Origin: Spirochaetota bacterium
GTDB taxonomy: Bacteria > Spirochaetota > UBA4802 > UBA5550
NCBI GenBank assembly: GCA_963664815.2
Contig: CAXXHB010000003.1
Span: 1,504,001 to 1,568,000 of the forward strand
Direction: 5' to 3'
Length of the DNA: 64,000 nucleotides
Made by a program: the position numbers and the translations under genes. Within the stretch, counting starts at the first letter, position 1, and each line of letters opens with the position of its first letter. The notes beneath the pieces are model-generated. The model worked only from the letters and a program-made list of their open reading frames with translations. It searched no databases and was not told the origin of the DNA. Positions 53,259 through 64,000 of this stretch are shown here, piece by piece.

Positions 53259-56200
53259 ATGAAGATGAATAAAAAGCAGATGAAGTCAATGGACGGTAAC
53301 CAGGCAGCAGCCCATGTGGCTTATGCTTTTACTGAAGTAGCAGCAATTTATCCCATTACTCCATCATCACCTATGGCGGAACATGTTGATGAATGGACGG
53401 CACATGGGAAGAGAAATATTTTCGGGAACATGGTCAAAGTGGCAGAGATGCAGTCTGAAGCGGGAGCTGCAGGTGCTTTGCATGGTTCACTTCAGGGGGG
53501 AGCTCTTACAACTACATTTACTGCTTCACAGGGATTGTTGCTCATGATTCCGAATATGTATAAAATTTCAGGAGAACTTCTTCCGGCGGTTTTTCATGTC
53601 ACCGCGAGAACACTGGCAGCGCATGCGCTTTCAATTTTTGGTGATCATTCAGATATTTATTCCGTCAGACAGACCGGATTTGCCATGCTTGCAAGCAGCA
53701 GCGTACAGGAGGTTATGGATCTTGCAGGTGTTGCACATCTTACAGCAATTAAAAGCAGGGTGCCGTTTCTGCATTTCTTTGATGGTTTCAGAACATCACA
53801 TGAAATTCAGAAAATAGAGGTTATTGATTACGAGGATCTTGAAAAACTTCTGGATTATGAAGCACTTGAGAGATTCAGGGCCAATGCGCTTAACCCTGAA
53901 AATTCGTGCACCAGAGGTACAAACCAGAATCCGGATATATTCTTTCAGGCGCGTGAAGCATCAAACAGGTTCTATGTCTCTCTTGATGATACTGTTGAAG
54001 AATACATGAAGGAAATTACAAAAATTACAGGCCGCGAATATCATCCTTTCACATACTATGGAGCGCCTGATGCTGAAAATATTATAATAGCAATGGGTTC
54101 TGTTACAGAAACAATTATTGAAGTAATAGATTATCTGCGGAAACAGGGTGAAAAGGTAGGACTGATAAATGTTCATCTTTACAGGCCATTTTCTGAAAAA
54201 TATTTGATGAAAGTTCTCCCTAAAACTGTAAAGAGAATAGCGGTTCTTGACAGAACAAAAGAGCCGGGAGCAAATGGGGAACCTTTATATCTGGATGTCA
54301 GGGATATATTTTATGGAAAACCGAATGCTCCTGTTATTGTGGGTGGAAGATATGGGTTGAGTTCAAAAGATACAACCCCGGAACAGATGTTTGCGGTTTA
54401 TAACAATCTGAAACTGCCTGAACCGAAGAATGGCTTTACCGTAGGGATTAATGATGATGTTACGTTTAAATCCCTTCCTCTTCCCGAAGCTGTGAGTGTC
54501 GTTGCCGATGGTACAATCGAGGCAAAATTTTATGGTATCGGGTCAGATGGAACTGTCGGAGCTAATAAAAATTCAATAAAAATTATTGGTGATACTACTG
54601 ATCTTTATTCTCAGGCATATTTCTCCTATGATTCAAAAAAATCAGGAGGTGCAACGGTATCGCATCTACGCTTCGGAAAATCCCCTATAAAATCGACATA
54701 CCTTATTTCACAGCCGGATTTTGTGGCCTGTCACGTTTCATCGTACATCTATAAATATGATATGCTCAAAGGGCTAAAAAAAGGTGGTACATTCCTTCTT
54801 AATATAGTGGGGGATGTTGAAGAGACAGTCGAAAAGCTTCCCGACAGAATGAAGTTATACATGGCCAAGAATAACATAAATTTTTATGTGATAAATGCTA
54901 CCAGAATTGCTGAGGAGATCGGACTCGGTTCCAGAACTAATACAATTATGCAGTCAGCTTTCTTCAAGCTTGCCAATGTTATTCCATATGAGAAGGCGAT
55001 GGCAGAAATGAAAGGTGCTGCCAAGAAGAGCTATGGTAACAAAGGTGATGATATCGTAAATATGAATTACGCAGCAGTTGATAAAGGCGCGGATGGTCTT
55101 GTGAAAATCAATATTCCTGAAAGCTGGAAGAATATTGACGGGAAATCTGACGGGAAGAGAACCGATATTACTGAATTTTTCGAGAAAATAGCATTGCCGA
55201 TCAATAACCTTGACGGTGATCTTCTGCCGGTAAGTGCATTTATAGGAAGAGAGGATGGTACTTTCCCTGCATCGACTACACAGTATGAAAAACGTGGAAT
55301 AGCAATAAATATTCCGGAATGGTTGCCTGAAAACTGTATACAATGTAATCAGTGTTCGTACGTATGCCCGCATGCTGCAATAAGGCCTTTCCTGCTAGAT
55401 GAAAAAGAAGCTGCAGGAGTAACACAGGGTACAAAACTTGTTGAAGCAAAAGGCAAAGGTCTTGAAGGTATGAAATTCAGAATACAGGTAAGTCCACTTG
55501 ACTGTACAGGCTGTGGAAACTGCTCACAGGTTTGTCCTGCAAAGGAGAAGGCCCTTGTGATGAAACACCTTGAAACTCAGCTGGGCGAAACAAAGAACTG
55601 GAATTATATCAGTGCGAATGTTACATACAAGAACACTCTGATGCCGGTAAATACGGTAAAAGGAAGTCAGTTCTCACAGCCTTTGTTTGAGTTTTCCGGG
55701 GCGTGCGCAGGTTGCGGTGAAACTCCCTATATAAAACTGATTACACAGCTTTACGGCGAGAGAATGATGATCTCAAATGCAACAGGTTGTTCTTCAATTT
55801 ACAGTGGTGCAGCACCGGCAACCCCATACTGCAGAAATTCAAAAGGTCATGGTCCTGCATGGGCTAACTCGCTTTTCGAGGATAATGCTGAATATGGATT
55901 TGGTATGAATCTTGGTGTTGAACAGATGAGAAACAGGATTGCGGACCTTACGGATATTTATAATTCCGAAGGAAGCTCATCTGAACTGAAATCTCTTTTA
56001 AGCCAATGGAAGGCTGAGAGAAATAATGCAGAGAAAACAAAAGTGCTTGTAGAAAAAATTGTACCAATTCTTGAAAAGGATAATTCCAAATCTGCAAAAG
56101 AGATTTATAAACTGAAGCAATACATTGTTAAAAAATCACAGTGGATATTCGGAGGCGACGGATGGGCATATGATATAGGTTACGGCGGACTTGATCATGT

Positions 56201-56786
56201 TGTTGCATCAGGTGAGGATGTAAATATACTGGTAATGGATACTGAAGTTTATTCGAATACCGGGGGTCAGTCATCTAAAGCAACTCCTACTGCCGCTGTT
56301 GCAAAATTCGCAGCATCAGGTAAAAAGATAAGGAAAAAAGACCTTGGTATGATGCTTATGTCATACGGATATGCTTATGTTGCCCAGGTAAATATGGGGG
56401 CCAATCAGTCACAATACCTGAAAGCATTGATGGAGGCTGAAGCTTTTCCCGGTCCATCTGTCCTGATTGCATATTCGCCATGTATTAATCATGGTTTGAG
56501 ATCAGGAATGGGGAAATCACAATATGAAGCCAAGCTTGCTGCTGAGTGCGGCTACTGGAGCATGTGGAGATATAATCCGTTACTTGAAGCTGAGGGCAAG
56601 AATCCGTTTATACTTGATTCAAAAGAACCTGATTTCAGTAAATTTCAGTCTTTCCTTGCAGGTGAAGTGAGATATTCTTCTTTGAAAAAAGAATTCCCGG
56701 ATAAAGCGGATGAGCTTTTTGCTGAAGCTGAAAGGAATGCAAAATGGAGATTTAACAGGTATCTGAAACTTTCAGAGAGTAATTAA
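53259..56786 (+). CDS. nifJ: Pyruvate:ferredoxin (flavodoxin) oxidoreductase
   Basis: AIYPITPSS, EMQSEAGAAG, two CxxCxxCxxxCP, GACAGCGET, GGDGWAYDIG, YSNTGGQ. Confidence 0.98.
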   Translation: MKMNKKQMKSMDGNQAAAHVAYAFTEVAAIYPITPSSPMAEHVDEWTAHGKRNIFGNMVKVAEMQSEAGAAGALHGSLQGGALTTTFTASQGLLLMIPNMYKISGELLPAVFHVTARTLAAHALSIFGDHSDIYSVRQTGFAMLASSSVQEVMDLAGVAHLTAIKSRVPFLHFFDGFRTSHEIQKIEVIDYEDLEKLLDYEALERFRANALNPENSCTRGTNQNPDIFFQAREASNRFYVSLDDTVEEYMKEITKITGREYHPFTYYGAPDAENIIIAMGSVTETIIEVIDYLRKQGEKVGLINVHLYRPFSEKYLMKVLPKTVKRIAVLDRTKEPGANGEPLYLDVRDIFYGKPNAPVIVGGRYGLSSKDTTPEQMFAVYNNLKLPEPKNGFTVGINDDVTFKSLPLPEAVSVVADGTIEAKFYGIGSDGTVGANKNSIKIIGDTTDLYSQAYFSYDSKKSGGATVSHLRFGKSPIKSTYLISQPDFVACHVSSYIYKYDMLKGLKKGGTFLLNIVGDVEETVEKLPDRMKLYMAKNNINFYVINATRIAEEIGLGSRTNTIMQSAFFKLANVIPYEKAMAEMKGAAKKSYGNKGDDIVNMNYAAVDKGADGLVKINIPESWKNIDGKSDGKRTDITEFFEKIALPINNLDGDLLPVSAFIGREDGTFPASTTQYEKRGIAINIPEWLPENCIQCNQCSYVCPHAAIRPFLLDEKEAAGVTQGTKLVEAKGKGLEGMKFRIQVSPLDCTGCGNCSQVCPAKEKALVMKHLETQLGETKNWNYISANVTYKNTLMPVNTVKGSQFSQPLFEFSGACAGCGETPYIKLITQLYGERMMISNATGCSSIYSGAAPATPYCRNSKGHGPAWANSLFEDNAEYGFGMNLGVEQMRNRIADLTDIYNSEGSSSELKSLLSQWKAERNNAEKTKVLVEKIVPILEKDNSKSAKEIYKLKQYIVKKSQWIFGGDGWAYDIGYGGLDHVVASGEDVNILVMDTEVYSNTGGQSSKATPTAAVAKFAASGKKIRKKDLGMMLMSYGYAYVAQVNMGANQSQYLKALMEAEAFPGPSVLIAYSPCINHGLRSGMGKSQYEAKLAAECGYWSMWRYNPLLEAEGKNPFILDSKEPDFSKFQSFLAGEVRYSSLKKEFPDKADELFAEAERNAKWRFNRYLKLSESN

Positions 56787-57237: not shown

Positions 57238-57954
57238 ATGTTAAAAAGTTATTTTATTGATTTTAATAAAAAAATTGTAAAAAAAGCATCGGTTGCAAAA
57301 TCAGCTTCTACGAAGGGAAGTGCAAAAAAAAACAGTTTAAATATTGATTTTAATGCTTTTACAGAAAAATTGGATGGTATAATACCCAGAAAATTACGCG
57401 TTGATTCATTAAAACCAGTAGATAGTTCAGGTTTCTCACCAGATGGAACAGATTTAATCGTTTATAGTGAATATTGCAGAGATATAAAAACTCTTTTAAA
57501 TGGTTATATTCCCTATGAACTGATTCATGGAGCTTTTTTTCTCGTGAATGATCTTAATAAGAGTTCATTGGCGGATGTATTCGGGCGTGTTGCAACATTA
57601 AAAAAAATAAATCATTTTACAGATGCTGCAGGAACATTTAATATCCCGTCATTTATTATAACCAATAATAATCCGGATTATACACTCTCTGAAATAAAAA
57701 ATGATGTTATAAACTACTGTATGTCAAAAAATATTTCTTCCGAATCTGAATTTGAGATAATTATGATACATAATACCGGATTATTGATAAAAGACTGGCA
57801 TAAGGGAGATCACAGGTTTATAGGTCTTGAGACGGGAGAAGATACTATGATGTGGTTTTTTATACTGATGAATGAATATCTTGATGTTGAAAGAGAAGAT
57901 GTTTTTGATGTACGAAATTATGTCAGGACAGAAAAATCATATAATGAGTTTTAA
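57238..57954 (+). CDS. Hypothetical protein, possibly a degenerate DUF6602/PD-(D/E)xK-like fold
   Basis: VDSSGFS..TDLIVY..IPYELI..LADVF.RVATLKKI pattern. Confidence 0.6.
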   Translation: MLKSYFIDFNKKIVKKASVAKSASTKGSAKKNSLNIDFNAFTEKLDGIIPRKLRVDSLKPVDSSGFSPDGTDLIVYSEYCRDIKTLLNGYIPYELIHGAFFLVNDLNKSSLADVFGRVATLKKINHFTDAAGTFNIPSFIITNNNPDYTLSEIKNDVINYCMSKNISSESEFEIIMIHNTGLLIKDWHKGDHRFIGLETGEDTMMWFFILMNEYLDVEREDVFDVRNYVRTEKSYNEF

Positions 57955-58031
57955 TTTGTATGTTTTTTTAATTATTCTTGACATTCTTTATTAAATATAC
58001 TAATTTAAAAAAAAATGTTAAGGGGATAATA

Positions 58032-59165
58032 GTGTTACGTATAAAAAAGACTACTTATAAATTATTGTTACTGTTAATTGCAGGATTCATCTTATTACCT
58101 GAACCTGAATCCCTAAAAGCAGCAGCCACAGTGGCTAACAAAGATGTGATCCTGGTGCTTGATACATCGTTAAGCATGGTAGGATATCAGGGTAAAAACA
58201 TTCTTGATTCTGTTAAAGGGAGCGTTAATTCCTATATTGACAGTCTTCAGGATGGTGACAGGGTTACTTTTGTAACATTTGATGAACAGGTTAAAGTATA
58301 TCCGCAGGTTTTGATTGATGATCAGAATGATAGAGATATAGTTAAAAAATATATATCTATAACTGAAGCAAAAGGGCAGTGGACATATACGCTGGATATG
58401 CTCAAAACAGTTTTCGCTCTTGCGGATAAACTTACAAAAGAGTCGGCACAGAGCAATACTGAATTAAAGAGAAATGTTGTTATAGTTATCATGAGCGATG
58501 GACTTGATGATCCACCCCCGACAAAGGTTAAAGAAAAGTTTGATTTGAAAAAGGTTTCGGCTCAATATAGTGGTAACGACTGGTGGATATATCTTGTCAA
58601 TCTAGATGAACTTCAAAAATCTAAAGAAATAACGGCGGCTCAGAAGAATTTATTAAATGAATTGAATAAGGTAAGCAGTAATACAAGTATGCTTGATGGC
58701 AGTGATCCCAATAAGGCTATTAATGATGCTCTAAAAAAAGATATCGAACGTAGAGAAAAGGAACAATTTTATAAGCTGTTAGCTGTATCTTCGGCTGCAC
58801 TTATTCTGCTTTTAATTATTATTATAGTAATTGTTAAAATCAGGGCAATAAAAATTATCGGACATCTTGAATACTGGAACCATGAATTATTAAAACCTGA
58901 AGTTTTTACTATATCATTGACAAACCATGAGAAGAAAGAAATCGTTCTTGGAAGAACAAGTACGTGTACAATCAAACTCAGGGAATATGAATCGCGTATA
59001 CCTTTCACTTTGAAAGCAGTGAGAAAAAGCGGGAAAGTTCTGATTAAAATAAGTCATGAAGAAGGTCTCAATCTGGCCTTTAAAAACAAGGAAGCTGATG
59101 GATTTGTGCTTAATGGCGATATTTTTAGTGCTTCCAATATGAGTTTTAGGTATCTTGCTGAGTAA
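58032..59165 (+). CDS. Membrane-anchored vWA domain protein with FHA-like C-terminus
   Basis: Signal, MIDAS DTSLS..T..SDG, TM helix, IVLGRTSTCTIKL; AGGGG RBS before GTG 58032. Confidence 0.85.
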   Translation: MLRIKKTTYKLLLLLIAGFILLPEPESLKAAATVANKDVILVLDTSLSMVGYQGKNILDSVKGSVNSYIDSLQDGDRVTFVTFDEQVKVYPQVLIDDQNDRDIVKKYISITEAKGQWTYTLDMLKTVFALADKLTKESAQSNTELKRNVVIVIMSDGLDDPPPTKVKEKFDLKKVSAQYSGNDWWIYLVNLDELQKSKEITAAQKNLLNELNKVSSNTSMLDGSDPNKAINDALKKDIERREKEQFYKLLAVSSAALILLLIIIIVIVKIRAIKIIGHLEYWNHELLKPEVFTISLTNHEKKEIVLGRTSTCTIKLREYESRIPFTLKAVRKSGKVLIKISHEEGLNLAFKNKEADGFVLNGDIFSASNMSFRYLAE

Positions 59166-59402: not shown

Positions 59403-61376
59403 ATGCCATTAAATCAATTTCCAAAGAGTCCAAATAAGGTACATCCAACTGTTCCAAGTGCTGTTGGTTCAAGAGAATCAATTGCTCAGGAGGGAAGGGA
59501 TAAGATAGAAGAAGGAAAGATTATACTTGATGAAACCTTCGATAAAGTGTTGAATCATATACAGACAAAACTTCCTGAAGAAGTATTGAGAGAACTTGAT
59601 GTAATGGGCGGTTTGAAGGAAAAACTGTATAATTATATTAACCAGACATATGTCAATATGTTTAACAGGTATACTGTTACAATGGAAGATGAATTCATGA
59701 AGAAAATACGTGAATTCGTTGATAAGGAGGAATCAAAAGGTCTTGCAAGATATACTCCAAAAGAAATTGTGGAAATTCTTGATAAAATTGGTGGAGCAGA
59801 CAAGTTTCATACCGGTGAAATAGAAAAATCTATAGTAAATATGTATGGCCACCTTCAGGGACATATTCAGAGAGGAGTCAATGATCTAGAAACAGAAACG
59901 AACTCCATTCTAAGACAAAAAACTGATGTTGGTGCCTTTGTTCGTGGTGAAAATGCGTATGCTATCCTCAAGTGCGTATTTAAGGACAATGAGTTACGTC
60001 CCAAATATGTTGATGATGTAAAACTTTCGATCAATATCCTTGAAAGTGAGTTAATAAGTCCTATGTATCATTATCAGGTAACTGTTGAGTCTATCATGAA
60101 GGATACTATTCAGAAACATATACAGGATCTAATAGAAAAACAGGTTCAGCAATTCAATGATGATCTTGTTGATAAAGGTAAAAATGAATTGTCATCAAGT
60201 GAAAAAATGTTTGAGAAAGTAAAACGAATTGATAATTTTACTGATGATGACAAAGAAGATGATAAATCAAAAAGGTATACTATTCTTGCCAAAAAATTTC
60301 TGGATAAAATAGAGGGTTTAAGGGCAGAAATTGATGTTGAAGAGATGGATCCTCTAAATATAAGAGAAAATATAAAATTTATTATTGATGAGGAAAATAT
60401 AAGAAACAGGGGATATAACACATGTGTTAATTCCATAACTTCGATTCTTGATACCAGTAAACTCGGTTATCAGGTATGTAACAACATGAAGAATGCCCGT
60501 GTATGTATAATCAGTGAATATGAAGAAACGGACAGAATGATGCTTCCAGATGAAAGATATACGATCAGAATGGCATATTATGATCAGAATCAGTTGAAAG
60601 AAGCAAAAAAAGAATATGACAAGCAGGTGGCTGCATTTACAACAGAAGTTGGTATGTTATGGGATGTAACACACGCACATTATGAATCAAAAAAGAGATT
60701 CAGATCTTTGGTTGATTTTGATGACTTAAGTGCCAGATTGATGAACAAAGAGTGGAAGAAACAGAAGAAAGCTTACGAAGATGATCCTGATGGCGTAATG
60801 TGGAATGAAGTTGGAGAAATGTATAATGAGAATTCTTTTGTTGAAAAAAATAACAGGACTTATGAAGACAGGTTTAAAAATCTGAAGAATAAACTTACTT
60901 ATTTAAAAGGTATACTTAAAAAAATGCACGGATTTCAGAATCCTGTTGAACGAGTTATTCTTGATGAAAGAATTTCATTCCTTGAAAAAAGGTTTAATGA
61001 ATTTGCCCATTTGGTAAATCCACATCATATACAGCCTGGACTTGTTCTTGATATAGATGTAACAACTGTTAAAAGAAAAAGATTTATCATGAAAAGTATG
61101 GCTAACTGTCTCAATGAATTTCTTTATAGTATTTCTAAAGGTTTTGCCGATGCCGCTTTTGCAACTTATTCAAGAAGGAGATCAACCGTCAGGGCGGATA
61201 TTGATCAGTCTTTTGGTGAAGATGAGATTGGTGAAGATCTTTTTGAAACTGCGTATAAGCAGGGTTCTGAGGCTGAATCGAGTGAAATTTTATTACCTGC
61301 TGAAGTTACAGGTTCTGTAAATTTAACTCCAAGCCAGGCTCCAAAAAAGAAAAGTTCAGGTTTAAAAGAGTTATAA
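59403..61376 (+). CDS. cfpA: Spirochaete cytoplasmic filament protein A
   Basis: N-terminus PKSPNKVHPTVPSAVGSRES matches recalled treponemal CfpA; coiled-coil; NPHHIQPGL, GFADAAFA; AAGGAGG RBS. Confidence 0.9.
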   Translation: MPLNQFPKSPNKVHPTVPSAVGSRESIAQEGRDKIEEGKIILDETFDKVLNHIQTKLPEEVLRELDVMGGLKEKLYNYINQTYVNMFNRYTVTMEDEFMKKIREFVDKEESKGLARYTPKEIVEILDKIGGADKFHTGEIEKSIVNMYGHLQGHIQRGVNDLETETNSILRQKTDVGAFVRGENAYAILKCVFKDNELRPKYVDDVKLSINILESELISPMYHYQVTVESIMKDTIQKHIQDLIEKQVQQFNDDLVDKGKNELSSSEKMFEKVKRIDNFTDDDKEDDKSKRYTILAKKFLDKIEGLRAEIDVEEMDPLNIRENIKFIIDEENIRNRGYNTCVNSITSILDTSKLGYQVCNNMKNARVCIISEYEETDRMMLPDERYTIRMAYYDQNQLKEAKKEYDKQVAAFTTEVGMLWDVTHAHYESKKRFRSLVDFDDLSARLMNKEWKKQKKAYEDDPDGVMWNEVGEMYNENSFVEKNNRTYEDRFKNLKNKLTYLKGILKKMHGFQNPVERVILDERISFLEKRFNEFAHLVNPHHIQPGLVLDIDVTTVKRKRFIMKSMANCLNEFLYSISKGFADAAFATYSRRRSTVRADIDQSFGEDEIGEDLFETAYKQGSEAESSEILLPAEVTGSVNLTPSQAPKKKSSGLKEL

Positions 61377-61394
61377 AATTGGAGTAAATTCTAA

Positions 61395-61430
61395 AATAAA
61401 AAAGGGATGATTAACATCCCTTTTTTTATT
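61395..61430 (+). terminator. Rho-independent terminator after cfpA
   Basis: AAAAAAGGGATG-ATTAA-CATCCCTTTTTTT. Confidence 0.85.
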
Positions 61431-61533
61431 CAAAAAGGGATATTTTATTGCACCTGTAAAATTTAATACTTGAAATTTTTTATTTTATTACAGTATATTT
61501 TTAGTGTGCTCAATCATAACAGGAGAGTCAATT

Positions 61534-62490
61534 ATGGAAACTACATACTATTCATTGGCATCTAAATCTTCTTTCAATAAGGCGTTAAGGCATTTTTTTG
61601 CAGTAAATGATGCTGTTGGTGAAATTGAAACTAAAAAAAATCTGGCAGATTATATTAACGATTTACTGGATGAGGAAGAAATACATCCTGATCAGGTACT
61701 TCCGATTATTGGAGCTGTTGTAAGAGATAAATTTGAGTATAGTTATTATTCATATAGCGTTCCAAACACTGTAACTGAGTTTCAGAAAGTTCAGGATGAA
61801 GTTGCAAAATGGAATACATTAGATATTCTGGTTATTTATTTTGGTCCTGATGGAAAAAGATTTGTAATTAACCCAAAAAACATTGATAGCTGGGAAAGGT
61901 GCAGGGAAATACATAAAGACCAGCTTCTGGTAATATATGTTAAACTAGAGAAGGAAAAGAATCAAAAGCTTGAAGAAGAAGCAATAAAAACTTTCATTGA
62001 TCTGTTTACAGGTAAAGATGTTTTCGTTAATAAAAGTTTTATTGATCAGACTATAGTTAATCGACCTGCTGCTGCCTCTGCTCCAAAAGCTGTTGCAGCA
62101 ACCCCGGGAAGTAAACCTGCAGCTTCGGTTGTACAATCGGCTCCTCAAAAATCAAAAAAAGTGAATATAACTCCTAAATATGGGGTTCTCGTATCAAACG
62201 AGTTGTTTCACAATGGTAATGTTGAGGCATGGAAAAAAGTTTTGGAAAGTTTTAATGCAAAATATCCGGATTTAACAGTACATGTAATGTATGAAGGTGA
62301 GGTCATAAACGATATAAATTCCCTGTTCAAGTGGGGGAAGGTAAAACATGGAGATTCAATCTTTTTTCAGGTATCGGGTGAAAATATTATGGGTGTGTCA
62401 AAGCTACAAAAATATTTATATGAAGGTGCCAGCCAGCGTTATGAACAATTTCTTAAACTTGGTGTTGGTCGGGTTCTGAATATTTTTTAA
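61534..62490 (+). CDS. Conserved spirochaete protein with Pro/Ala linker and C-terminal HPr-like domain
   Basis: AGGAGA RBS before ATG 61534; VSNELFHNGN..NSLFKW..VKHGDSIFFQVSGEN resembles HPr. Confidence 0.75.
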   Translation: METTYYSLASKSSFNKALRHFFAVNDAVGEIETKKNLADYINDLLDEEEIHPDQVLPIIGAVVRDKFEYSYYSYSVPNTVTEFQKVQDEVAKWNTLDILVIYFGPDGKRFVINPKNIDSWERCREIHKDQLLVIYVKLEKEKNQKLEEEAIKTFIDLFTGKDVFVNKSFIDQTIVNRPAAASAPKAVAATPGSKPAASVVQSAPQKSKKVNITPKYGVLVSNELFHNGNVEAWKKVLESFNAKYPDLTVHVMYEGEVINDINSLFKWGKVKHGDSIFFQVSGENIMGVSKLQKYLYEGASQRYEQFLKLGVGRVLNIF

Positions 62491-62511
62491 ATCAATTAAA
62501 AGGAGAAAAAA

Positions 62512-64000
62512 ATGAGTAATATTATATATTTTAATAAAGATTTAAAATTGGAAGATGAAAAAGTATTATCGAAGCTGGGAATCCGGGGGAGAAGAGCAGT
62601 TGAACTTGCAAGTATGGGTTTACCGATTGTACCTGGTTTTATAGTCGATTCTGAACTAACATTGAAACTGCCTCAGGTAAATATTAAAGAACAACTTCTT
62701 TCCCAGATATCTCAGATAGAAAAAGAAACAAAGAAAAAGTTTGGAGATAATAAAAAACCATTATTTTTAAAACTCGTTTTAAGTTCGGATTTGAATGTTC
62801 CATTCTTTCCTTCAATTCATAATATAGGTATGAATAGTGAAACTGTAGAAGCATTCGGAAAATTTACAGGTAATGAATTTGCTTATGGTGAATACCTGTT
62901 TTTAATGAGAAATCTTGCTACAAAGCTATTTAATATACCTGAAGAAAACAGAAAAAAAATTGAAGGGACTCTTCCGAAAAAACCATCACTTGATCAGATA
63001 AAGAATACAATAGATGCATATAAAAAGGAATTTGATAAGAATTTCAGTGATGATGTTATGGATCAACTGATATTGATAATGAAAAAAGCAGCTGAAACAT
63101 ATTGTGATTCTGATATTGATGTAGATAATACATTGTCAATAATGATTCAGGCAATGGTTTATGGAAATTTTGGTGATAATTCATACTCTGGTAATTATTT
63201 TACAAGAAACATAATAACTGGGGATGCAGAGATACAGGGCGATTTTTTAAAAAATGAGTTTGATTTTACTGGTGGTAAAGCTACTGAAATTAAAAATATA
63301 GATAAAAAATATTTCGATAAATTTACACAAATAGGTCATAAGATAGAAGAAAATTTTAAAGAAATTCGAAATATAAAGTTTACTATTGAAGAAGGAGATT
63401 TCTGGCTTGTTGAACAGAGGGAGGTTGATGAAAAATCAACACAATCGCAAATAAAAACTCTTTTAGACTTAAATGCTAATAAAATAATAACTGATGAATA
63501 TCTTATTAAAAATATTAAGCCAGGACAGCTGAATGAATTACTTCATCCTGTTATTGATCCACGTACTGTAAAGAATATAAAAACTATCAAGGGTGGTATT
63601 GCCGGATCTACTGGGGCTGCAATTGGTAAAGTATTTTTTTCAACGCCAAAGCTTTTAGAAGAATATAAGAAAGCAATAATGCATGGGTCTGATACAAATA
63701 TGATTTTAATTTTAACTTCTTCTTTTGCTGAAGATGTAAAGGCAATAGAGGTTGCTCAGGCTGTTGTTACATGCGAAGGTGGCTTTTCTTCTCATGCACC
63801 AGTTGTTGCAAGAAGTCTTGGAAAAGTTGCGATGGTTCAGCCGGAAATGAAAATTAAAGGTAATTCTCTGACAATTGATGGTAAAACTGTTAAGGAAGGA
63901 GATTATATATCTATCAATGTCCCGTATTATGAAGAACCGACATTATATCTTGGTAAAATAGGTCTCATTGAACCGGATTTTAAAAATAATGGGCTACTGG
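62512..64000 (+). CDS. Pyruvate phosphate dikinase-like protein with degenerate ATP-grasp domain (runs off the window)
   Basis: Manual translation: GLPIVPGF, QAMVYGN, FTRN, FTIEEG, LLHP, GGFSSHAPVVARSLGK; AGGAGA RBS. Confidence 0.9.
   Translation, partial: MSNIIYFNKDLKLEDEKVLSKLGIRGRRAVELASMGLPIVPGFIVDSELTLKLPQVNIKEQLLSQISQIEKETKKKFGDNKKPLFLKLVLSSDLNVPFFPSIHNIGMNSETVEAFGKFTGNEFAYGEYLFLMRNLATKLFNIPEENRKKIEGTLPKKPSLDQIKNTIDAYKKEFDKNFSDDVMDQLILIMKKAAETYCDSDIDVDNTLSIMIQAMVYGNFGDNSYSGNYFTRNIITGDAEIQGDFLKNEFDFTGGKATEIKNIDKKYFDKFTQIGHKIEENFKEIRNIKFTIEEGDFWLVEQREVDEKSTQSQIKTLLDLNANKIITDEYLIKNIKPGQLNELLHPVIDPRTVKNIKTIKGGIAGSTGAAIGKVFFSTPKLLEEYKKAIMHGSDTNMILILTSSFAEDVKAIEVAQAVVTCEGGFSSHAPVVARSLGKVAMVQPEMKIKGNSLTIDGKTVKEGDYISINVPYYEEPTLYLGKIGLIEPDFKNNGLL

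What the first reader, a model, noticed from the sequence alone, without database searches (positions are those of the whole stretch)
59403..64000. Candidate undescribed PEP-driven phosphorelay beside the cytoplasmic filament gene: CfpA, tethered HPr-like protein and Enzyme-I-like pseudo-PPDK
Seen: cfpA is followed by a two-gene unit (21-nt gap) encoding an HPr-like domain with a His at the His15 position and a PPDK homologue that keeps its phospho-His but lacks ATP-site residues. Known: PPDK and PTS Enzyme I share the His-swivel and PEP-binding domains, and Enzyme I passes phosphate from PEP to HPr. From memory, the order cfpA-hypothetical-ppdK also occurs in T. pallidum (Tp0748-Tp0746), annotated simply as metabolic PPDK. 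Inference: PEP to pseudo-PPDK His to HPr-like His, signalling carbon and energy state to the CfpA cytoskeleton (division, nucleoid segregation). Caveats: a terminator separates cfpA from the pair, and the PEP-binding domain lies outside the window.
Basis: partly seen in the sequence, partly recalled or inferred. Interest (0 to 1): 0.88.

Follow-up and report, generated by a model that had tools for sequence, protein, structure and literature searches.

The report
Filament-linked PPDK-like and HPr-like gene pair
Next to the spirochaete cytoplasmic-filament gene cfpA lie a protein with two HPr-shaped domains and a pyruvate-phosphate-dikinase look-alike that keeps its PEP and histidine sites but has lost its ATP site; the three genes travel together across the phylum and may form an undescribed PEP-driven phosphate relay.

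Summary
cfpA (59403-61376) is followed by a terminator-like hairpin and then by a 318-aa protein (61534-62490, Pfam TP_0747_N family). 21 nt after that comes an 862-aa PPDK paralogue, which runs out of the window to coordinate 65100.

- **The paralogue.** In all 20 members examined it keeps the catalytic His and every PEP/pyruvate-site residue. It has lost the phosphate- and Mg-binding residues of the ATP-grasp site. The genome has a separate canonical PPDK.
- **The middle protein.** It has two HPr-fold domains. The first (Z 10.3) has no His. The second (Z 7.6), on an Ala/Pro-rich tether, has a His in 64 of 67 sequences immediately before helix A, as His15 is in HPr.
- **Co-inheritance.** Of 301 Spirochaetota genomes, 108 hold at least one of the three genes and 103-104 hold all three. 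One family keeps all three although they are unlinked.
- **A T. pallidum-like genome.** Its only "PPDK" belongs to this clade.
- **Published T. denticola data.** The paralogue co-fractionates with CfpA and the three genes are co-regulated.

A relay from PEP to the paralogue's His to His226 is the best-supported mechanism, but it is inferred, not shown. The output onto CfpA is speculative. My searches of the held literature found no description of this system.

The parts
59403..61376 (+). cfpA, cytoplasmic filament protein A (657 aa)
   Evidence: NCBIfam NF040882 892.8 bits, cut-off 500; ORF
61416..61441 (+). Terminator-like hairpin (10 pairs) followed by a T run, downstream of cfpA
   Evidence: Consensus scan; sequence read. 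A pattern match only.
61470..61499 (+). Promoter-like site TTGAAA-18-TATATT upstream of the middle gene
   Evidence: 10 of 12 matches. The region has no more such sites than shuffles do (19 found, shuffle mean 24.5), so this is weak.
61534..62490 (+). Middle gene, TP0747 family (318 aa). It has a helical head, HPr-like domain 1, an Ala/Pro-rich tether, HPr-like domain 2 and a C-terminal L-x-L-F tail.
   Evidence: 2700 relatives carry the precomputed Pfam PF27497, which the Atlas names TP_0747_N. AF2 model pLDDT 90.5.
61738..62016 (+). HPr-like domain 1 (residues 69-161), with no His at the His15-equivalent position
   Evidence: VIA wide search: HPr Z 10.3, 9.8, 9.6, 8.9 and NPr 7.5; the next unrelated row is 6.2. 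Columns 76-90 show no conserved His.
62026..62148 (+). Low-complexity Ala/Pro/Lys-rich linker (residues about 165-205), variable in length between species
   Evidence: pLDDT 53-77 in the model; gappy, variable columns in alignment A1
62158..62448 (+). HPr-like domain 2 (residues 209-305), holding the motifs V(S/T)NELFHNGNVEAWK and LFKWGKVKHG
   Evidence: Domain folded alone, pLDDT 92.9. VIA Z 7.6, rmsd 2.1 A, 78 of 85 residues, top 25 rows all HPr or Crh. Foldseek probability up to 1.00, E 0.014.
62209..62211 (+). Codon of His226, the candidate phospho-acceptor. It is the residue immediately before helix A (227-243).
   Evidence: His in 64 of 67 aligned sequences; secondary structure
62512..64000 (+). 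PPDK paralogue, TP0746 family. The first 496 of 862 aa lie in the window; the gene ends at window coordinate 65100 (G000:C3:1569100).
   Evidence: (TIGR01828 689 bits, below the 843 cut-off)
62512..63531 (+). Remodelled ATP-grasp domain (residues 1-340). Against C. symbiosum numbering: R25 for K22, V89 for R92, N287 for D321, K289 for E323, and an 11-residue loop deleted.
   Evidence: Alignment to 1dik; clade-wide counts; Pfam PPDK_N only 30-32 bits
63793..63795 (+). Codon of His428, the swivel-domain phospho-histidine (His455 of C. symbiosum PPDK)
   Evidence: His kept in 20 of 20 paralogues

Best explanation
cfpA, the TP0747-family gene and the TP0746-family PPDK paralogue form one conserved functional module of Spirochaetota.

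The paralogue is not an AMP/PPi-dependent dikinase. It keeps the PEP/pyruvate half-reaction, in which PEP plus His428 gives pyruvate plus His428~P. Its former nucleotide cleft has lost the phosphate- and Mg-binding residues and has become basic.

The most likely acceptor of the phosphoryl group is His226 of the second HPr-fold domain of the neighbouring protein. That domain hangs on a flexible Ala/Pro-rich tether, as phosphocarrier domains do in multidomain PTS proteins (recalled). The rest of the protein (helical head plus the His-less HPr-like domain 1) would dock it to the paralogue and/or to the CfpA ribbon.

The pair would then be an Enzyme I/HPr analogue built on a PPDK scaffold, reporting the PEP/pyruvate state at the cytoplasmic filament.

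Shown: the gene anatomy, the residue patterns, the folds and the co-inheritance.
Inferred: the PEP-dependent autophosphorylation, the His-to-His transfer, and any effect on CfpA.
For: (a) The PEP site and the His are intact. R561, R617, E745, N768, D769, C831 and H455 are kept in 20 of 20 paralogues, as in 20 of 20 canonical PPDKs. Over 105 genome pairs, the His and PEP domains are as conserved among paralogues (58.7% and 63.0%) as among canonical enzymes (58.6% and 62.4%). The N domain is not (40.6% against 61.6%).

(b) The nucleotide site is lost across the clade. K22>R in 19 of 20. R92>V/I in 20 of 20. R135 is lost in 20 of 20. The loop carrying G101, M103 and D104 is changed in 20 of 20. 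The xRTP loop Arg is deleted in 20 of 20. D321 is lost in 19 of 20. E323>K/R in 19 of 20. All of these are kept in 20 of 20 canonical enzymes.

(c) The paralogue is a separate old clade. The 20 paralogues and the 21 canonical sequences fall on opposite sides of one branch (SH-aLRT 92). The window's genome also has a canonical PPDK (1408 bits) and a pyruvate kinase.

(d) The partner has an HPr fold with a near-invariant His at the N-cap of helix A. Its two most conserved motifs map to the loop plus helix A and to helix B plus the following loop. These are the surfaces HPr uses for its partners (recalled).

(e) Co-inheritance. The middle gene is found in 106 of 301 genomes, cfpA in 107, and the paralogue in 105 at the threshold used. 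103 of the 108 genomes with any of them hold all three, or 104 counting G078, where one search finds the trio. The middle gene and the paralogue are adjacent in 97 of 104. The 7 exceptions are all from one family of 1.3-1.9 Mb genomes that keeps all three genes on separate contigs. Within single families the trio is present or absent together (f20 10 of 28; f8 2 of 8).

(f) Literature (passages seen). TDE0844 'PPDK' is band 1 and CfpA is band 3 of the T. denticola envelope fraction (PMC3931704, Table 2). TDE0842, TDE0843 and TDE0844 are repressed together (PMC3914990, Table 5).

(g) Every genome checked that lacks a canonical PPDK has another route from PEP to pyruvate: PK in G159, G210 and G171; GTP-PEPCK plus OAD-beta in G102.
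Against: - No sequence-level similarity to HPr. Pfam PTS-HPr finds only the genuine HPr in this genome, and hhalign probabilities are 2% or less.
- For the His-bearing domain, Z 7.6 is in the range the tool calls 'middling', and Foldseek E-values are only 0.014 and worse.
- Arg17 of HPr has no counterpart. The motif reads H-N-G-N.
- 3 of 67 sequences lack His226.
- PPDK has no equivalent of the helical subdomain with which Enzyme I binds HPr (recalled), so a docking site has to be assumed.
- Parts of the adenine-pocket strands (xMVYGN, G254, FTRN) are kept, and Q335 is kept in one of the two alignments, so a ligand may still bind there.
- The one genome without PK or a canonical PPDK (G102) could be read as needing this enzyme for glycolysis.
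- A terminator-like hairpin separates cfpA from the pair.
- Genomes that are kin are not independent, so the co-occurrence counts overstate the number of independent events.
Confidence: 0.45

Rival explanations
1. Filament-associated scaffold. The paralogue and the two-HPr-fold protein are structural or regulatory parts of the CfpA ribbon, for example its bridging or anchoring components. The HPr-like domains would act as protein-binding modules, and no phosphate would pass to His226. Any PEP chemistry retained by the paralogue would serve sensing or its own regulation.
For: - TDE0844 is a major band of the sedimentable envelope fraction together with CfpA (PMC3931704, Table 2, passage seen).
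- HPr-like domain 1 has the best HPr fold match but no His, so at least one HPr fold here is certainly not a carrier.
- The trio is co-inherited.
- The title of Izard et al. 2004, seen only in the reference list of PMC3398590, speaks of unidentified 'bridging and anchoring components' of the filaments.
Against: The catalytic residues of the PEP site and the swivel His are kept in 20 of 20 paralogues, and those domains are as conserved as in true PPDKs. That argues for ongoing catalysis. The near-invariance of His226 and its motif needs a reason.
Confidence: 0.2
2. PEP-dependent phosphotransferase with a small-molecule acceptor. His428~P would pass its phosphate to a ligand bound in the remodelled N-domain, such as a nucleoside-like compound or Pi to give PPi. 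The TP0747-family protein would be a regulator or adaptor rather than the acceptor.
For: - The strands lining the adenine pocket are partly kept (MVYGN, G254, FTRN).
- New residues are conserved across the clade in the N domain (R25, K87, S91, H103, Q213, R286, E293, K308 and S309 in alignment A2).
- The N domain is still 40.6% identical across the clade.
- There is precedent for re-targeted swivel-His enzymes: rifampin phosphotransferase (PMC4844700, passages seen).
Against: The acidic Mg ligands are replaced by Lys or Arg and an 11-residue loop is deleted, which is unfavourable for phosphoryl transfer to a small anion (inference). This reading does not explain the strict coupling to a protein that has an HPr fold with a conserved His, nor the coupling to cfpA.
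Confidence: 0.15
3. The database annotation is right: this is a working pyruvate, phosphate dikinase with an unusual nucleotide site, and it sits by cfpA through operon history alone.
For: - The three-domain architecture is complete.
- It scores 689 bits against TIGR01828 and 534 bits against C. symbiosum PPDK.
- G102 has neither PK nor a canonical PPDK.
- The T. pallidum literature treats TP0746 as glycolytic (PMC10013896 and PMC8525777, passages seen).
Against: - It scores below the equivalog cut-off of 843.
- Residues that are invariant in 20 of 20 canonical enzymes are replaced in 19-20 of 20 paralogues.
- Most genomes with the paralogue also keep a canonical PPDK: two TIGR01828 matches per genome.
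- Its presence tracks cfpA, not glycolysis.
- It is retained with cfpA and the middle gene even where the three are unlinked (family f40).
- G102 has PEPCK plus OAD as a bypass.
Confidence: 0.15
4. The neighbourhood is chance or hitch-hiking and has no functional meaning.
For: A terminator-like hairpin lies between cfpA and the pair. Kin genomes inflate the counts.
Against: All three genes are present in 103-104 of the 108 genomes holding any of them, and in none of the other 193. Several within-family presence/absence splits occur. All three are retained where unlinked.
Confidence: 0.03

Closest known systems
PTS Enzyme I with HPr (PEP:protein phosphotransferase)
   Same: A PEP-binding TIM barrel and a swivel phospho-His domain sit next to a small HPr-fold protein with a His at the N-cap of helix A. 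The chemistry proposed is the same: PEP to His to His.
   Different: The enzyme is a PPDK paralogue, not an EI. It scores 86 bits against TIGR01417, cut-off 341.7. It has a remodelled ATP-grasp domain where EI has its HPr-binding helical subdomain. The partner has two HPr folds, a helical head and a tether, and shows no sequence similarity to HPr. The genuine EI and HPr are encoded elsewhere in the same genomes.
Pyruvate, phosphate dikinase (C. symbiosum 1DIK/1KBL; TIGR01828)
   Same: Same three-domain architecture. The catalytic His and all PEP/pyruvate-site residues are shared. Identity in the PEP domain is about 51% to the canonical copy of the same genome.
   Different: The phosphate- and Mg-binding residues of the nucleotide site are replaced, and an 11-residue loop is deleted, in all 20 members. 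The score is below the family cut-off. The paralogue is co-inherited with cfpA rather than with glycolysis.
Rifampin phosphotransferase (RPH; PMC4844700)
   Same: It is a precedent for a swivel-phosphohistidine enzyme of the PPDK/PEPS lineage with one substrate domain exchanged for a new acceptor site. That paper notes an HPr-like subdomain in RPH (passages seen).
   Different: RPH keeps a working ATP-grasp domain and lost the PEP domain. Here it is the reverse. RPH's acceptor is an antibiotic, not a protein.
CTP synthase with crescentin in Caulobacter
   Same: A protein of metabolic-enzyme ancestry functionally tied to an intermediate-filament-like cytoskeletal element.
   Different: Different proteins, with no phospho-relay involved. 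It is an analogy only.

Membership tests
CfpA (NCBIfam NF040882) | Full-length match over the curated cut-off | tested here: met
   892.8 bits, cut-off 500, profile positions 2-604 of 605
Pyruvate, phosphate dikinase (TIGR01828 equivalog) | Score over the curated equivalog cut-off (843.45 bits) | tested here: not met
   689.1 bits for the cfpA-linked gene, against 1408 bits for the genome's other copy
Pyruvate, phosphate dikinase (TIGR01828 equivalog) | Three domains: ATP-grasp, swivel His and PEP/pyruvate barrel | tested here: met
   PPDK_N (weak, 30.5 bits), PEP-utilizers and PEP-utilizers_C (232.5 bits); aligned to 1dik residues 17-872
Pyruvate, phosphate dikinase (TIGR01828 equivalog) | Catalytic His455 and PEP/pyruvate-site residues R561, R617, E745, N768, D769, C831 | tested here: met
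   Kept in 20 of 20 paralogues
Pyruvate, phosphate dikinase (TIGR01828 equivalog) | Nucleotide, phosphate and Mg site of the ATP-grasp domain (K22, R92, G101 loop, R135, D321, E323, R337). Residue roles are recalled from Ye et al. 2001. Only the role of Lys22 was seen cited, in PMC4844700. | tested here: not met
   Replaced in 19-20 of 20 paralogues and kept in 20 of 20 canonical enzymes. The status of Q335 depends on the alignment.
Pyruvate, phosphate dikinase (TIGR01828 equivalog) | Dikinase activity | not testable with these tools
   Needs an enzyme assay
PTS Enzyme I (TIGR01417) | Score over the curated cut-off (341.7 bits) | tested here: not met
   86.3 bits, covering the PEP-barrel part only (profile 348-546). 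The genuine EI of the genome scores 611 bits elsewhere.
PTS Enzyme I (TIGR01417) | Helical HPr-binding subdomain of the N-terminal domain | not tested
HPr (Pfam PF00381 PTS-HPr) | Sequence-profile match | tested here: not met
   Only the genuine HPr (C3:632515-632760, 81.5 bits) is found in the genome. hhalign probability is 0.24%, and 0.5% and 1.9% for the two domains.
HPr (Pfam PF00381 PTS-HPr) | Open-faced beta-alpha-beta-beta-alpha-beta-alpha fold | tested here: met
   Domain 1: Z 10.3, rmsd 2.0 A, 80 of 85 residues. Domain 2: Z 7.6, rmsd 2.1 A, 78 of 85 residues, top 25 rows all HPr or Crh.
HPr (Pfam PF00381 PTS-HPr) | Active-site His at the N-cap of helix A (His15) | tested here: met
   Domain 2: His226 directly precedes helix 227-243 and is present in 64 of 67 sequences. 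The register from the VIA ranges is within one residue of His15; no residue-level superposition was available. Domain 1: no conserved His, so the feature is not met there.
HPr (Pfam PF00381 PTS-HPr) | Arg17 next to the active His (recalled feature) | tested here: not met
   The motif is H226-N-G-N229; N229 is in 67 of 67 sequences
HPr (Pfam PF00381 PTS-HPr) | Phosphorylation on the His by a PEP-dependent enzyme | not testable with these tools
   Needs [32P]PEP transfer or mass spectrometry
TP_0747_N (Pfam PF27497) | Carries the family's domain | tested here: met
   Precomputed PF27497 on the window's own protein and on all 120 listed relatives. The name comes from the Atlas. The local Pfam copy lacks this model, so the match was not recomputed here.

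The most novel reading that the evidence does not exclude
The TP0746 family is not a dikinase. It is a PPDK-derived protein-histidine phosphotransferase that charges a tethered HPr-fold carrier (the TP0747 family) sitting on the CfpA filament ribbon. This would couple the PEP/pyruvate ratio to the spirochaete cytoskeleton, cell division and nucleoid organisation. A corollary is that the syphilis-type treponeme has no true PPDK, so its PEP-to-pyruvate step, which the literature assigns to TP0746 with ATP gain, runs through PEPCK plus oxaloacetate decarboxylase or through this relay.
Probability: 0.35. Interest if true: 0.9.

Novelty: new variant of a known kind. Interest (0 to 1): 0.8.

Why it matters
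CfpA filaments are a hallmark of treponemes, and loss of cfpA gives division, nucleoid and virulence defects (PMC3398590, passages seen). No partner or regulator of the filament has been identified in the papers I could see.

This work names two candidates that are always inherited with cfpA. It also gives them a concrete, testable biochemistry: PEP to His428 to His226.

It questions a textbook assignment as well. The only 'PPDK' of the T. pallidum-like genome lacks the residues that every canonical PPDK examined here keeps for handling nucleotide and pyrophosphate. Energy-yield models of that organism that count ATP from this step may therefore be wrong.

More generally, it would be the first PPDK scaffold turned into an Enzyme-I-like protein phosphotransferase. 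It is also a case of a protein holding one 'dead' and one possibly 'live' HPr fold.

Tried and rejected
1. Complex prediction. I sent the full paralogue (alignment A2) with HPr-like domain 2 (A1, residues 205-318). Score 0.00 in both runs, and the controls were not run. The tool's verdict is 'no answer', so it counts neither for nor against binding.

2. RNA evidence. No listed holder of window 61000-64000 is on record as RNA; 5 runs from 2 studies hold it as contigs. Read laying was therefore not used, and nothing can be said about expression or co-transcription in this organism.

3. A 'fusion' of CfpA with the N-terminal part of the middle protein (P0249, 841 aa). Rejected as a Rosetta-stone case. 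Its only record is a gene model in a mussel genome assembly, so it is most likely a spirochaete contaminant contig read with a eukaryotic gene caller. A search for longer relatives found none at E <= 0.001, which is weak evidence.

4. Sequence homology of either HPr-like domain to HPr, or of the two domains to each other. hhalign probabilities were 0.24%, 0.5%, 1.9% and 0.7%. One of the 7 rows of my small HPr alignment (L049) was a wrong-strand ORF.

5. A profile of A1 against PDB sequences gave only noise (E 0.26 and 0.83).

6. Foldseek with the full-length model first suggested that the HPr likeness lay in the C-terminal domain. The VIA wide search showed that its best HPr match is residues 69-161. 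Folding the C-terminal domain alone was needed to see the second one.

7. My recollection that T. pallidum lacks Enzyme I was not borne out. G102 has an EI-family match of 345.7 bits summed, in two pieces of a 711-aa frame.

8. The neighbours of the unlinked middle gene in G103 (FtsH, an HD-GYP-like response regulator, and a 445-aa protein with no Pfam match) gave no lead.

9. In the tree, CAN_G110 has an end branch of 7.76. It is probably a wrong ORF, picked as the 'longest' in the fetched stretch. I dropped it, which is why those have 20 canonical rows and not 21.

10. In one search, two of my site labels ('T253', 'G254') were off by one. The row labelled T253 is G254. I do not use the other.

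11. Literature. Searches found no paper describing TP0747/TDE0843, an atypical TP0746/TDE0844, or a phospho-relay at cfpA. 'TP0747' had 0 occurrences. Subscription papers are not held: Izard 2001 and 2008 and You 1996 were asked for by PMC id and not held.

Full report
**What is in the window.** Three genes lie on the + strand.
- cfpA, 59403-61376, scores 892.8 bits against NCBIfam NF040882 (cut-off 500).
- A middle gene follows. The ORF lister starts it at GTG 61504, but ATG 61534 has GGAG 7 nt upstream and gives the 318-aa protein that gene callers report (P0001). It ends at 62490.
- A PPDK homologue starts 21 nt later at 62512 and runs off the window.

Between cfpA and the middle gene lie a terminator-like hairpin (61416-61441, then a T run) and a promoter-like site (61470-61499). 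These are pattern matches only. In the genome (window = G000:C3:1504001-1568000) the homologue is 862 aa and ends at window coordinate 65100.

**The PPDK homologue is a paralogue with a dead nucleotide site and a live PEP site.** The genome has a canonical PPDK on another contig (1408 bits against TIGR01828). The cfpA-linked gene reaches only 689 bits, below the 843 cut-off. The genome also has a pyruvate kinase, a genuine Enzyme I (611 bits) and a genuine HPr.

Aligned to C. symbiosum PPDK (1dik), the paralogue keeps His455 (its His428, in GGFSSHAPVVAR). It also keeps the whole PEP/pyruvate site: R561, R617, E745, N768, D769 and C831. In the ATP-grasp domain it has R for K22, V for R92, an altered G101 loop, F for R135, N for D321 and K for E323. 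The QGEDVVAGxRTP loop is deleted.

I fetched the corresponding gene from 19 other genomes and canonical PPDKs from 20 genomes. The counts, are:

| Residue (C. symbiosum numbering) | 20 paralogues | 20 canonical PPDKs |
|---|---|---|
| K22 | R in 19 | K in 20 |
| R92 | V or I in 20 | R in 20 |
| R135 | lost in 20 | R in 20 |
| G101 / M103 / D104 loop | changed in 20 | G101 and M103 kept in 20; D104 is D in 14, E in 6 |
| Arg of the xRTP loop | deleted in 20 | R in 20 |
| D321 | lost in 19 | D in 20 |
| E323 | K or R in 19 | E in 20 |
| His455 and the six PEP-site residues | kept in 20 | kept in 20 |

The status of Q335 depends on the alignment. R337 is not conserved in either. The roles of these residues are recalled from Ye et al. 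2001. I saw only Lys22's role cited, in PMC4844700.

Domain by domain, over 105 genome pairs:

| Domain | Paralogue-paralogue identity | Canonical-canonical identity |
|---|---|---|
| His domain | 58.7% | 58.6% |
| PEP domain | 63.0% | 62.4% |
| N domain | 40.6% | 61.6% |

A tree puts the 20 paralogues and the 21 canonical sequences on opposite sides of one branch (SH-aLRT 92). One canonical row there is a long-branch artefact. So this is an old, separate clade in which the PEP-to-His half-reaction is under full constraint and the nucleotide half is not.

**The middle protein has two HPr folds.** It matches nothing in the local Pfam or in NCBIfam. Its 2700 relatives carry the newer Pfam PF27497, which the Atlas names TP_0747_N.

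An AlphaFold2 model from 67 sequences has pLDDT 90.5. It shows a helical head (1-66), an alpha/beta domain (69-161), a low-confidence Ala/Pro/Lys-rich linker (about 165-205) and a second alpha/beta domain (209-305). Both alpha/beta domains have the strand and helix order of HPr.
- The exhaustive VIA search gave HPr at Z 10.3 (rmsd 2.0 A, 80 of 85 residues), then 9.8, 9.6 and 8.9, and NPr at 7.5. All of these are for residues 69-161, and the next unrelated row is 6.2. I had not expected this.
- The C-terminal domain folded alone (pLDDT 92.9) gave HPr or Crh in all 25 top VIA rows. The best is Z 7.6, rmsd 2.1 A, 78 of 85 residues. HPr also dominates the Foldseek list, with probability up to 1.00 but E only 0.014.

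The tool warns that Z under 8 can be a common arrangement. Here the match covers the whole HPr chain, and no other family intrudes before rank 26.

The two domains differ in the decisive point.
- Domain 1 has no conserved His before its first helix.
- Domain 2 has His226 directly before helix 227-243, in 64 of 67 sequences. It sits inside V(S/T)NELFHNGNVEAWK, the most conserved motif of the protein. A second conserved motif, LFKWGKVKHG, covers helix B and the following loop.
- The C-terminal residues L-x-L-F are also nearly invariant; F318 is in 67 of 67.

No sequence-level relation to HPr is detectable, and there is no counterpart of Arg17.

**The three genes are inherited together.** In 301 Spirochaetota genomes, the middle gene is found in 106. 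cfpA is found in 107, all over the cut-off. A paralogue-type N domain, at E 3.7e-36 or better, is found in 105 (canonical PPDKs cross-match only at E 1.7e-34 and weaker).

Tabulating the coordinates gives 108 genomes with at least one of the three and 103 with all three. G078 also has the trio, which makes 104. The other 193 genomes have none.

Presence and absence split inside families: f20 10 of 28, f8 2 of 8, while f14 is 0 of 45 and f18 is 0 of 38 for both cfpA and the middle gene.

The middle gene and the paralogue are adjacent on the same strand in 97 of 104 genomes:
- 88 by the typed rows;
- 8 more by the first-part rows, for the 965-972-aa forms;
- G032.

The 7 exceptions are all from family f40, whose 1.3-1.9 Mb genomes keep cfpA, the middle gene and the paralogue on three different contigs.

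cfpA and the middle gene are adjacent in 88 of 105. In 20 fetched loci, 18 show the order cfpA, middle gene, paralogue. Kin are not independent, so these counts overstate the number of events. Even so, joint retention without linkage and joint loss within families argue for a shared function rather than hitch-hiking.

**Treponemes.** L007 comes from G102, a 1.14-Mb single-contig genome. It shows cfpA (678 aa), the middle gene (344 aa) and the paralogue (901 aa). This paralogue is the genome's only TIGR01828 match (E 2.4e-183). The genome has no pyruvate kinase, but it has GTP-PEPCK and the oxaloacetate decarboxylase beta subunit.

The gene's coordinates include the TP0746 positions printed in PMC10013896. 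From that I infer that G102 is T. pallidum-like and that TP0746 belongs to this clade. That paper and PMC8525777 treat TP0746 as a glycolytic PPDK that makes ATP (passages seen).

Other genomes with the paralogue but without a canonical PPDK have pyruvate kinase (G159, G210, G171).

For T. denticola, PMC3914990 (Table 5, passage) lists TDE0842 cfpA, TDE0843 hypothetical and TDE0844 putative PPDK as repressed together. PMC3931704 (Table 2, passage) identifies TDE0844 as band 1 and CfpA as band 3 of the envelope fraction. That is an odd place for a soluble glycolytic enzyme but a natural one for a filament-bound protein.

**How it most likely works.** The paralogue can still take phosphate from PEP onto His428. 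This is inferred from intact residues and from constraint on those domains. It can hardly hand the phosphate to AMP and PPi.

The neighbouring protein offers an HPr-fold domain on a flexible tether, with a near-invariant His where HPr has His15. Its most conserved surfaces lie where HPr meets its partners (recalled). His-to-His transfer needs no Mg (recalled from PTS biochemistry), which fits the replacement of the acidic Mg ligands by Lys or Arg.

I therefore rank a relay from PEP to His428 to His226 first, at confidence 0.45. The helical head and the His-less HPr fold would serve as docking parts, and the CfpA ribbon would be the place of action.

The rivals, in order:
- a largely structural, filament-associated role (0.2);
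- a small-molecule acceptor in the remodelled cleft (0.15);
- a working but unusual PPDK (0.15);
- chance (0.03).

**Novelty.** My searches of the held literature found no description of this system. Older subscription papers and supplements could not be read. It resembles Enzyme I with HPr in its logic and PPDK in its ancestry, but it fails the sequence-based membership tests of both. I rate it a new variant of a known kind, with a well-supported anatomy and an untested mechanism.

Noticed in passing
G000:C3:3784427-3787438 (-), locus L003; outside the window: A third PPDK-related gene. It is a 1004-aa frame with a roughly 480-aa N-terminal extension of unknown kind, then an ATP-grasp domain with canonical-looking motifs (GGKG, SMPG) and a swivel His domain, but no PEP barrel.
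   Followed up: no
window 53259-56786 (+) and G000:C3:1569193-1570377 (-) (= L002 4140-5324): In this genome the trio sits between a 1175-aa pyruvate:ferredoxin oxidoreductase-like gene (by its sequence motifs; not scanned) and, convergent just downstream, phosphoglycerate kinase (PF00162, 501.9 bits). So here it is embedded among central-carbon genes.
   Followed up: partly
window 57238-57954 and 57978-59165 (+): Directly upstream of cfpA lie a 238-aa protein with no family match and a 395-aa protein with a von Willebrand A domain followed by a hydrophobic segment. I did not check whether they travel with cfpA elsewhere.
   Followed up: no
window 61738-62016 (residues 69-161 of the middle protein): This part of the Pfam 'TP_0747_N' region is itself an excellent HPr fold (Z 10.3) without the active His. 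It is a 'pseudo-HPr' inside the same protein as the His-bearing HPr-like domain.
   Followed up: yes
L016, L017, L018 and genomes G044, G018, G032, G056, G104, G119, G126, G154, G175: In three families (f8, f22, f30) the paralogue is 964-972 aa long, with an insertion of about 100 residues in the N domain. This splits the match into two pieces.
   Followed up: no
G005: C97:23675-25486, C69:22694-24508, C102:30441-32243: One genome has three full-length cfpA matches (974, 854 and 843 bits) but one middle gene and one paralogue, both next to the first copy.
   Followed up: no
P0249 (841 aa): An apparent fusion of CfpA with the N-terminal half of the TP0747 family is a gene model in a freshwater-mussel genome assembly. 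It most likely comes from a spirochaete contig among the host contigs.
   Followed up: yes
G102:C1:625304-627259 (+): The Enzyme I match of the T. pallidum-like genome comes in two pieces (profile 1-135 and 259-565) within one 711-aa frame, 345.7 bits in sum. This suggests an EI with an inserted or diverged middle part.
   Followed up: no
L026 (G078:C2): The most divergent paralogue (39% identical to the window's) has drifted further in the N domain. It has L at the K22 position and L at the E323 position. It still keeps the His and the PEP-site residues.
   Followed up: partly
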